Shown here: in pieces, positions 33,101 through 36,677 of the stretch | Layout: the number at the start of each line of letters is the position of its first letter | Numbering within the stretch: the stretch's first letter is position 1 | From: Eledone cirrhosa | Taxonomy: Eukaryota | Direction of reading: 5' to 3' | NCBI GenBank assembly: GCA_964016885.1 | Contig: OZ024756.1 | Span: 32,798,001 to 32,862,000 of the forward strand | DNA length: 64,000 bases | Program-made: the position numbers and the translations under genes | The notes under the pieces: model-generated | The model's database searches: none | What the model saw: the letters and a program-made list of their open reading frames with translations, nothing else | Told to the model about the DNA's origin: nothing

Positions 33101-33268
33101 ATGCTCGGACCTGCTTGTTTAAATCTTAGAGCTTATTTTCTGGGTGATATGGCGCATGTATTTCTGGCATGACACCCATAATTTTGATTTAGATTAAATT
33201 CATTTAATTTATCTTAATTTTGTATATATATATATATATATTTTTTTTTATTTTTATTTTATAGAAGG

Positions 33269-33319
33269 AGCTTCTACAGGACTAGTACTGTTTCATTCAG
33301 ATGAAATCTTCAGGAAGCT
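33269..33319 (-). ncRNA. Type I hammerhead ribozyme motif (H4, inverted arm)
   Basis: Reverse complement of 33340-33390. Confidence 0.85.
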
Positions 33320-33339
33320 CTCAGATGAAATCTTCAGGA

Positions 33340-33390
33340 AGCTTCCTGAAGATTTCATCTGAATGAAACAGTACTAGTCCTGTAGAAGCT
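33340..33390 (+). ncRNA. Type I hammerhead ribozyme motif (H4)
   Basis: agcttc-CTGAAGA-t ttca tc tgaa t-GAAA-cagtactagtcctg-TA-gaagct. Confidence 0.85.
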
Positions 33391-34149
33391 CCTTCTATAA
33401 AATAAAAAAATTTTACTCTGCCATGTATTGAGTACCTTACTTACTGTGGTTATCCCCGACTCAACCTGGGACCTACGTATATATATATATATATATATAT
33501 ATATATATATATATATATATATATATATATATATATATATATATATATATATATATCCAGGGAGTATAACGCGGAGTTACTGTAGGATCACCTGGGTGAG
33601 CACTCGATGTTTAGTTTCGCGTCGGTATCGGGGTGTAGAGCTAGACGAGTGTAATACAATAATACAAGGACAAATAGTTACTCCTTCATTACGTTTATCG
33701 TTTGGTGTTGGGCGGTTCGCAACCGATCAGCTGGATTTTCGATCTGTATCGATCTTGCTCGACTCTGGAATCAAATCATTACTACTACAGAGGTCTTTCC
33801 GTTTCATATGAAAATTGACATTTGTTAAACATATTAACGAATAATAGTAATTATTCCAGATTGTGCCAAAAGCATGGCTAGAACTTTGACTCTGTTATAG
33901 GATTAATGTTAGATATGAAAAGAAAAAAATGTATACATATATATATATAAAAGTTTGCATATATATATATATATATATATATATATATATATATATATAT
34001 ATATATATATATATATATATATATATATATATATATATATATATATATATATATATATATATATATATATATATAGGGCTCGATAAGGATAAATATATAT
34101 CAAATATATAAGAACCGTAGAGCAAATATTTATTAAAATAACAGATTAA

Positions 34150-34200
34150 AGTTTAAGTAAAGAATCGCTGCTTTCACCCTTAACGGGATCTTCTGAAACT
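34150..34200 (-). ncRNA. Type I hammerhead motif with CAGAAGA core (H3)
   Basis: Second copy of 32726-32776 with the same U4A core. Confidence 0.55.
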
Positions 34201-35919
34201 AACAAAGTCAATCTGTAAACGCAGAAGTGGATATTTCAAAAAACGTATATATCTATATATATATACGTATATATATATATGTATATGCTTATATATATAT
34301 ATACGTATATATATACGTATATATATACGTATATATATACGTATATATATACGTATATATACGTATATATATACGTATATATATATACGTATATATATAC
34401 GTATATATATGTGTATATGCGTGTATGTGTATACATATACATATATATATATATATATATATATATATATATATATATATATATATATGTACCTGTATGT
34501 GTATACATATATATATAATATATATATATATATATATATATATATATATATATATATATAAATATATATATATACGTGTATGTGTAAACATGTATATATA
34601 TATAATTATATACATATATATATGCGTGTATGTGTAAACATATATATGTGAGTGTGTTTCTGTCTATGTGCGTTTGTTATGTATGCGCGTGTGCCTGAGT
34701 GCCACTAAGTTTCGAATGAGCTAAAAGAAAAAAGAAAAAATATTATGTATAAAATAGTCGTACAAAATTACAAAGACCAGATGGAAAAGGAACATTAACA
34801 TGAAAATAACGATAGCTCCTCAAATTAATAATGGCGTCCATAAATAACTAGCAATGTTTGCTGAGTTTTTGTTAATATTTTTTTTCTATATTATAGGTAC
34901 GCCATTCATAATTTTTAATTATTCTTCAAGTGCTTTTGAATTTGATATTACAAGTAAACGCTCCGGTGACAATTGAAAATAATATAGTTGTTACTTGTAA
35001 AGCGCCAGTTCTTGCAGATTTATCCTCTGTGTTGGCAAATTCATCTGCTAATTGTTTCATGCATGCAGAAAATTACATATTCACTCCACTTCTCTCTTTA
35101 CCTCTATTTCTCCCACACGTACATACCCGCACCCACACACGCATATATCTATCTATCTATCTATCTATCTATCTATCTATCTATCTATCTATCTATCTAT
35201 CTATCTATCTATCTATCTATCTATCTATATAAGTACTGTTTAGTTTACTACTATTATATATATATATATATATATATATATATATTTATTAAAGTAACAG
35301 ACTTAAGTTTAAGTTTTAATAAATATTTGCTCTACGGTTCTTATATATTTGATATATATTTATCCTTATGGATTTTAGTGTTCAAATTTATTATTATTAC
35401 TACATATATATATATATATATATATATATATATATATATATATATATATATATATATATATATATATATATATATATATATATACATAAGGAGTTTTCCT
35501 GTTGTATTTACAACTTGAAACATTTAGAACTCACTCAGGATATTTGTGGCGCTATTAAATGAAATTGAATTTGTCTAAAACCCCTTGCATCAATATATAC
35601 CCTCACAAGATCTTGTGAGGGTATATATATATATATATATATATATATATATATATATATATATATAATGTTTATCCCGGGTTCAATCGGAGGGTCAATT
35701 CATAGCAGTGTATAAATATTTAATATCGAAATGGTTTGTACAGGACTAGAACTGTTTCAATCGGGAGAACTCATGAGGGAGTCGACTGTCCTAGCAATAT
35801 GGTGATATTTATACCTTTTGTGGTGGTAGAAGAGGGTGGTGATTGGGATGGGTGGATGTCATTGGTTGGTGGATTTACAGAAAAGGGAATTCTTTAAAAA
35901 TTATATTTAGTGTAACAAA

Positions 35920-35970
35920 GGCTTCCTGATGATTTCTCTCGAATGAAACAGTTCTAGTCCTGTAGAAGCC
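35920..35970 (+). ncRNA. Type I hammerhead ribozyme motif (H4 relative)
   Basis: ggcttc-CTGATGA-t ttc tctc gaa t-GAAA-cagttctagtcctg-TA-gaagcc; decayed inverted partner at 35733-35783. Confidence 0.85.
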
Positions 35971-36677
35971 ATTTCTCTATAATATATATATATAGTATAT
36001 ATATATATATATATATATATATATATATATATATATATATATATATATATATATATATATATATATATATATATATATATATATATATATATATATATAT
36101 ATATATATATATATATATATATATATATTAAAACCCGCTATACTCATTGGGAGAGCATACTGCAATAGTAATTTTATTGCATCTACGTTTTCAAGATCAT
36201 GAGAAGTGTAGGATTGTTTTCCCATTCGTGCAGTCTCTATCCCTTTTCAGTTGAAATCCCTCCGAAGTTAACTTTGCCTTTTCGTATTTGTAAATCAATG
36301 AAATAATGAACAGTCCACTCTATCATACTAGCTCTCCTTTGCAACAAATTAGCTGAAGAGCGTATGGCCTCTGACAGGTGTAACGTATCCAAGACCTACC
36401 AGAGAGTGATGACAAATACGGTGATGTATGCTTCAAGCAGAAATTACACCAGCGAATGGGGTTTATATCTAGTAAATGAAAAGCGATTATAACAAAGAGA
36501 AAACAGTAGATATAACAAGAGCAATGGTTTAAAGAAATATCCATGTTAACAATAACCTGTAAAAATAAATATCAACTATGAACAGTTCCACAACTTAAGG
36601 GGACAGTGCTTACAGTTAATTCCAAAACAAACCTACAGAAAACTACAACTACTACTACTACTACTACTACTACTACT

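What the first reader, a model, noticed from the sequence alone, without database searches (positions are those of the whole stretch)
33252..35980. H4 back-to-back ribozymes with a compensatory stem I pair
Seen: at 33.3 kb the arms meet head-to-head at the ribozyme 5' end, with a ~22 nt partial repeat. Stem I is agcttc/gaagct there and ggcttc/gaagcc at 35.9 kb, a true A-U to G-C covariation. Stem III is a near-palindrome around ctag, compatible with dimeric hammerheads. Transcription of either strand would contain a ribozyme.
Basis: seen in the sequence. Interest (0 to 1): 0.7.

Follow-up and report, generated by a model that had tools for sequence, protein, structure and literature searches.

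The report
Mirrored stubs of Hydra-clade Penelope retroelement
These back-to-back hammerhead-ribozyme motifs are the short mirrored footprints of a very common Penelope-type jumping gene, a known layout, and their inner ends stop about 30 letters behind a TATA box, which likely marks where the element's RNA begins.

Summary
33241-33477 is a head-to-head insertion into (TA)n of the ribozyme-bearing end (pLTR) of a Hydra-clade Penelope-like element. The same pLTR precedes an RT + GIY-YIG frame in a full element elsewhere (L151), and its core has 2,795 exact copies. 35670-35981 is an older sister family whose second ribozyme is broken. Stem I covariation holds across three families (two pairs). 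Corrections: the triplet is GUA, not CUA; the palindrome is loop III; a transcript through the hairpin is predicted to bury the ribozyme. Activity is untested. Of 100 sampled copies, 3' ends fall at two sites, one of each in 23 of 24 mirrored pairs. 5' ends pile up at the ribozyme's first base (33 of 100), 29-30 nt behind TATAAATA in all three families, often with an extra G. Likely mechanism: two cDNAs, primed from both ends of the cut target, run to the capped RNA start and are joined. Inverted pLTRs and their hammerheads are published; this scan already noted the two-end rule on other DNA of this genome. The TATA/cap evidence is the addition.

The parts
33223..33240 (.). (TA)n target, left side of the family A insertion
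   Evidence: sequence
33241..33319 (-). Family A short arm: element positions +1 to about +70, intact hammerhead motif (33269-33319, predicted cut between 33275 and 33274), ending in a slipped A-rich tract
   Evidence: same 3' end class (+60 to +72) in 48 of 100 copies
33320..33320 (+). Untemplated C (a G before +1 on the RNA strand; the template has C there); candidate copy of the RNA cap (inferred)
33321..33343 (-).
   Evidence: similar short re-copies in other junctions
33340..33390 (+). Family A type I hammerhead: stem I 33340-45/33385-90, CUGAAGA, weak stem II (U-U plus 3 bp), GAAA, stem III 4 bp with palindromic loop, GUA with predicted cut after 33384
33340..33477 (+). Family A long arm, +1 to +138; 1 difference from read-through copy L106; 94% identical to the 5' pLTR of full element L151
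33478..33556 (.). (TA)n target, right side
35670..35922 (-). Family B long arm: 5'-truncated copy with about 140 nt upstream of the ribozyme and a 22-nt deletion near its 3' end
   Evidence: 88% to L086
35733..35783 (-). Decayed family B hammerhead (core CUCAUGA, stem I unpaired)
35806..35813 (-). TATAAATA box, first T 30 nt before the ribozyme's first base; candidate promoter (inferred)
35920..35981 (+). Family B short arm with intact hammerhead motif (35920-35970, predicted cut after 35964); joins the long arm by a 3-nt overlap GGC at 35920-35922

Best explanation
Both loci are short insertions of the hammerhead-bearing end (pLTR) of Hydra-clade Penelope-like retrotransposons into TA repeats, likely made when both ends of the cut target each primed a cDNA on the element's RNA and the two cDNAs were joined head to head. 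Shown: family membership, TA targets, two 3' end classes with one of each per mirrored pair, a pile-up of 5' ends at the ribozyme's first base, and a TATA box 29-30 nt before it. Inferred: the TATA box starts a capped RNA at the first base of stem I; the RT starts internally at about +65 or at +138; when it starts in the 5' copy of the pLTR it runs through the uncut ribozyme to the cap, often adds a C opposite the cap, sometimes re-copies the last bases, and the two 3' ends anneal by short overlaps such as AGCT. Starts in the 3' pLTR give the long, variably truncated arms. The ribozyme is predicted to cut after GUA only as a dimer or with help from protein. The hairpin itself is a by-product, not a device.
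For: Full element L151 carries this pLTR directly before an 823-codon open frame with Hydra-clade motifs; family B's pLTR runs into a homologous, broken frame in L086; family C precedes 758-codon frames 74% identical to it. First 100 of 2,795 core matches (all on contig C1): 3' ends 52 at +138 and 48 at +60 to +72; 23 of 24 head-to-head pairs have one of each (binomial p 3e-6); 5' ends 33 at -1 to +2, 28 at +3 to +22, 5 at -22 to -2, 0 at -49 to -23, 34 further upstream. TATAAAT at -29 in 38 family A, at -30 in 27 family C and 4 family B copies, with differing spacers. G before +1 in 14 of 34 arm ends against 19% G inside the inserts and in 18 of 41 unexplained ends. In 6 pairs more than 1 kb apart the arms mirror only 51-363 nt, so their 5' ends are independent. 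Ends at the cleavage site are rare: 23 of 64 pattern matches, against 2,795 intact cores (counted by eye). Internal RT initiation, extension of both target strands and use of uncut RNA are shown in vitro for a Poseidon element (PMC11167929).
Against: No RNA end was mapped; the start site is inferred from DNA copies. The G signal is noisy: C stands at -1 in 11 of 33 and 14 of 41 ends, the sets include some read-through and overlap cases, and only 2 of 7 partner-less arms show G. One of the 33 ends (L208) is an internal deletion in a read-through copy. A lineage variant is shared by both arms in 3 of 3 pairs that carry it, which also fits fold-back copying (4 shared, 50 private differences in 81 pairs). 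The measured Drosophila Penelope promoter is TATA-less and internal (PMC2377424 passages). The sample is one contig and one family.
Confidence: 0.7

Rival explanations
1. Fold-back or self-priming: one cDNA (or an antisense template) turns back at the palindromic AGCT in stem I and copies itself until an A/T-rich tract lets it join the other TA end.
For: Explains one long plus one short arm without a second priming; many junctions are perfect palindromes at AGCT (a sample biased for them); self-priming on an antisense template is the published reading (PMC3846280 discussion passage); shared variants in 4 pairs.
Against: Long pairs mirror only 51-363 nt of 1.3-6.3 kb; the 35.9-kb short arm starts at +1 while its partner reaches about -140; both arms often end with their own extra bases and an insert between them (20 junctions); families B and C lack the AGCT palindrome yet show the same layout.
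Confidence: 0.2
2. The +1 edge is an RT stop caused by ribozyme structure, a bound protein or a splice acceptor, not by the RNA start.
For: The edge coincides with the end of stem I; families A and C read CCCAG at -3 to +2, a possible acceptor, and an intron ends at helix I in Drosophila Penelope (PMC4209133).
Against: No shared upstream exon or leader precedes the arms; family B lacks AG at that place; TATA spacing and a pyrimidine-purine step at -1/+1 hold in three families; the extra G is not predicted.
Confidence: 0.2
3. One reading: a functional back-to-back ribozyme cassette that cuts transcripts from either strand.
For: Both arms at 33.3 kb hold an intact motif; two copies co-fold into a dimer with paired loop III (-30.0 and -28.6 kcal/mol against -19.6 and -18.6 for two monomers).
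Against: The antisense arm is transcribed first on both strands and the 69-bp hairpin (-133 kcal/mol) leaves stems I and III at probability 0.000; junctions differ from copy to copy; the 35.7-kb partner is decayed; the active monomer fold has probability 0.001 (A) and 0.018 (B).
Confidence: 0.05

Closest known systems
Hydra clade of C-terminal EN+ Penelope-like elements (PMC8557442; section 11 read, other passages and supplement passages seen; includes Hydra-1_Obim)
   Same: RT plus C-terminal GIY-YIG frame with RW(K/R), DKT, CxCX5C, CxxC and CxH motifs; hammerhead in the pLTR; (TA)n targets; inverted 5'-truncated copy beside the direct one. Protein blocks match Hydra-1_Obim by eye.
   Different: New families: the listed Hydra-1_Obim hammerhead has a 7-bp stem II and another sequence; here stem II is U-U plus 3 bp. 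One-sided extension is about 70 nt rather than 30-40. Full element is about 4.5 kb owing to a long low-complexity 3' region.
Hammerheads in pLTRs of metazoan PLEs (PMC4209133; abstract, results and discussion read)
   Same: Type I topology, CUGANGA/GAAA core, palindromic loop III, predicted dimer use; motifs on opposite strands close together were noted there.
   Different: No G10.1-C11.1 pair, short stem II, a 4-bp stem III with an 8-nt loop. A later paper on dimer cleavage by small PLE hammerheads (PMC5785218) was not held; seen only as a reference title, so these variants may be described there.
Poseidon element PAc in vitro (PMC11167929; main text read)
   Same: Two internal RT start sites downstream of the ribozyme, AT-rich targets, both strands extended, uncut RNA as template, protein-assisted ribozyme.
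   Different: Other clade; its frame starts inside the ribozyme, here about 185 nt after +1; in the text read it does not address the inverted junction or the RNA start.
Inverted pLTRs with palindromic junctions in Adineta vaga Penelope (PMC3846280; passages read)
   Same: Head-to-head layout, shorter inverted pLTR, junction palindromes, a putative TATA box plus initiator in the pLTR.
   Different: Read there as self-priming on an antisense template; the junctions here fit two sense-templated cDNAs better.
[quoted passage not shown]
   Same: [quoted passage not shown]
   Different: Different element class; one end only, no inverted partner.

Membership tests
Type I hammerhead ribozyme | Core CUGANGA, GAAA and NUH in order | tested here: met
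   triplet GUA. Not met by the decayed copy at 35733-35783
Type I hammerhead ribozyme | Stem I closes the motif, with compensatory changes | tested here: met
   2 of 6 pairs change on both sides across families A, B, C in 8 hand-picked rows; only two independent events; 49 of 500 shuffles reach 2 pairs
Type I hammerhead ribozyme | Stem II with G10.1-C11.1 | tested here: not met
   U-U then 3 bp; stem II pair probability 0.01 (A), up to 0.06 (B) in the monomer. This form is the family norm: 23,892 matches to a pattern that fixes it
Type I hammerhead ribozyme | Match to an Rfam hammerhead model | tested here: not met
Type I hammerhead ribozyme | Self-cleavage | not testable with these tools
   needs an assay
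Dimer-type PLE hammerhead | Palindromic loop III favouring strand exchange | tested here: met
   predicted only: co-fold pairs loop III; in family A the dimer still misfolds stem II
Penelope-like element (EN+) | pLTR adjoining an RT + GIY-YIG frame | tested here: met
   L151, L144. Pfam gives only a sub-threshold GIY-YIG hit in one of two proteins and no RT hit; domain calls rest on motifs
Penelope-like element (EN+) | Inverted 5'-truncated copy and one-sided extension | tested here: met
   23 of 24 pairs
Hydra clade | RWK motif, DKT in place of DKG | tested here: met
   RWR (variant) and DKT in both proteins
Hydra clade | CxCX5C linker; CxxC and CxH flanking E and N in the endonuclease | tested here: met
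   read
Hydra clade | Insertion into (TA)n | tested here: met
   3' ends abut (TA)n in nearly all of 100 copies
Hydra clade | Placement in an RT phylogeny | not tested
   no named reference proteins were available to the tree tools
Non-LTR retrozyme | Tandem head-to-tail units each with a hammerhead, no coding partner in cis | tested here: not met
   no such array at either locus; the unit is the pLTR of a coding element

The most novel reading that the evidence does not exclude
In these Hydra-clade families a TATA promoter starts the RNA exactly at the ribozyme's first base, and the thousands of mirrored stubs are pairs of cap-terminated 'strong-stop' cDNAs made from both ends of one DNA break and joined. 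This would explain the head-to-head inverted pLTR of Penelope elements without an antisense template, and would make the hammerhead a switch able to remove the element's own capped 45-nt leader.
Probability: 0.45. Interest if true: 0.6.

Novelty: new member of a known kind. Interest (0 to 1): 0.3.

Why it matters
As a sequence feature it is routine: one of thousands of Penelope-type stubs. Its use is as a record of mechanism. How these telomerase-related elements build tandem and inverted ends, and what their hammerheads do, is stated as open in PMC8557442 and PMC11167929. Here the junctions predict a transcription start to within a base or two and say that uncut RNA is the template, both cheap to test.

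Tried and rejected
Rfam: no hammerhead match; the microRNA-precursor hits on the hairpin are below gathering score and reflect any long duplex. RNA evidence: no RNA holder listed; four contig runs laid on L151 gave presence of related sequence only, no ends or strand. A guess that L002's junction was the true upstream sequence failed: 1 match genome-wide; the real upstream came. The junction pattern excluded read-through and perfect-palindrome copies by design, so its 540 matches were not used as a proportion. Samples were biased by their queries and not used for counts of ends. No solved-structure relative. The representative search showed a large protein family (17,154 at E up to 0.001) without names. 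A hairpin master copied as a unit was rejected because outer ends and junctions vary between copies. Literature searches for a TATA/cap or two-primer account of the PLE junction returned one unrelated paper and PMC3846280; the library is incomplete and PMC5785218 was not held, so absence from print is not established.

Full report
Observation. The window holds three intact type I hammerhead motifs in the stretch: 33340-33390 (+), 33269-33319 (-) and 35920-35970 (+), plus a decayed one at 35733-35783 (-). The first two form a perfect 69-bp inverted repeat whose arms meet at the 5' strand of stem I, separated by one extra C and a second copy of the first 23 nt. The triplet is GUA, not CUA. The CTAG palindrome is in loop III. 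No Rfam hammerhead model matches.

What it belongs to. The 33.3-kb unit (family A) is a dispersed repeat: 2,795 exact matches of a 24-nt core, 0 for the reversed control. A looser pattern covering sister families gives 23,892. The 35.7-35.9-kb unit (family B) is an older sister family. One B copy, L086, continues into a broken reading frame; searching with it gave 10,570 candidates, 150 scored, many in open frames of 758 codons. Of 16 stretches fetched, L151 carries the family A pLTR directly before an 823-codon open frame, and most others carry a third family, C (output partly cut). The two proteins are 74% identical. They show RWR, DKT, CxCX5C, a C-terminal GIY-YIG-like segment, CxxC and CxH, the features given for the Hydra clade in PMC8557442 section 11, and match Hydra-1_Obim blocks by eye. 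Pfam alone does not name them. No tree was built.

The ribozyme. Stem I reads AGCTTC/GAAGCT in A, GGCTTC/GAAGCC in B and AGATTC/GAATCT in C (137, 27 and 38 of 312 motifs in fetched loci). That is two pairs changed on both sides; stems II and III do not covary in the 8 rows aligned. Stem II is weak and lacks G10.1-C11.1. The active monomer fold is improbable (0.001 and 0.018), two copies co-fold as a loop III dimer, and in a transcript through the hairpin the hammerhead stems have probability 0.000 on either strand. Whether it cleaves is untested; metazoan PLE hammerheads cleave weakly as dimers (PMC4209133) or with protein help (PMC11167929).

How the mirrored form arises. I mapped the first 100 core matches, all on contig C1, against a read-through copy, numbering the first base of stem I as +1. 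3' ends: 52 at +138, 48 at +60 to +72, nearly all abutting (TA)n. Of 24 head-to-head pairs, 23 have one end of each class; 18 are short hairpins. 5' ends: 33 at -1 to +2, 28 at +3 to +22, 5 at -22 to -2, none at -49 to -23, and 34 run further (the ungapped extension stops at a poly-C tract). TATAAATA begins 29 nt (A) or 30 nt (B, C) before +1, with different spacers; one such box is in the window at 35806-35813. Arm ends at +1/+2 often carry a G where the template has C: 14 of 34 ends from 17 of 20 junctions (3 with inserts under 4 nt left out), and 18 of 41 ends not explained by the partner. The signal is mixed: C is also common, and only 2 of 7 partner-less arms show G. Such a G is attributed to the cap in L1/SVA insertions (PMC3287187 passages). 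Copies ending at the cleavage site are rare (23 of 64 matches; the pattern misses some, and many of the 23 may be short-repeat deletions), so templates were mostly uncut. In 6 pairs more than 1 kb apart, the arms mirror only 51-363 nt, which simple fold-back does not give.

Model. Inferred: RNA starts at +1 and is capped; the RT starts at one of two internal sites; both target ends prime; cDNAs begun in the 5' pLTR stop at the cap; their 3' ends are joined by short overlaps, sometimes after re-copying a few bases. The window's 33.3-kb locus reads as short arm, cap C, re-copied 23 nt, AGCT overlap, long arm. At 35.9 kb a +1-ended short arm joins a longer truncated arm by GGC. The main rival is self-priming fold-back, the published reading (PMC3846280), which keeps some support from shared variants.

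Prior art. Hammerheads in pLTRs, inverted truncated copies, TA targeting and two internal RT starts are published. I read part 1 of 5 of bioRxiv 10.64898/2026.07.22.740005 (its supplements are closed) and passages of PMC2377424 and PMC6765202. Earlier notes of this scan on other DNA of this genome already describe the mirrored stubs, the two-end rule, twin hairpins behind the two ends and, for one family, an RNA start inside the ribozyme. My family assignment, end counts and TATA reading were written before those look-ups. Short hairpins do follow both end sites in family A; in family C only the second folded in the segments tried.

Verdict. Real, a new member of a known kind, interest 0.3. 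The testable addition is the TATA-defined start at the ribozyme's first base with a possible cap signature.

Noticed in passing
family A junctions, e.g. L097, L099, L109, L115, L120, L206, L233: Arms that stop at the ribozyme edge often read T instead of A at +1 (13 of 41 unexplained ends), usually GT, whereas read-through copies nearly always have A; possibly miscopying of a modified first nucleotide next to the cap.
   Followed up: partly
window 32620-32781, 34076-34205, 35285-35400 (-): Three pieces of another TA-associated repeat (98% identical over 115 nt between the first two); seen in 11 of 301 fetched loci; no hammerhead core in the first copy.
   Followed up: partly
window 30870-30936 (+) and 17440-17601: Further pLTR fragments of the same clade: a ribozyme-less 3' piece, and an old head-to-head pair with a decayed hammerhead on the minus strand near 17473.
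   Followed up: partly
window 33557-33680: A different GC-richer repeat begins right after the TA tract; a similar sequence follows the family A copy in L007.
   Followed up: no
window 35600-35621: Perfect 22-bp palindrome flanked by TA repeats; possibly the minimal stub of another family.
   Followed up: no
L151:4260-4595 and 5930-5980: The full family A element's frame runs about 100 codons past the family C stop into low-complexity sequence, and its 3' pLTR lacks the TATA box and the 5' half of the ribozyme.
   Followed up: partly
L142-L157: Family C has many open 758-codon frames flanked by long (TA)/(TG)-rich tracts, so it looks recently active.
   Followed up: no
window 13748-14874: G/T-rich 36-bp tandem array of about 31 copies.
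   Followed up: no
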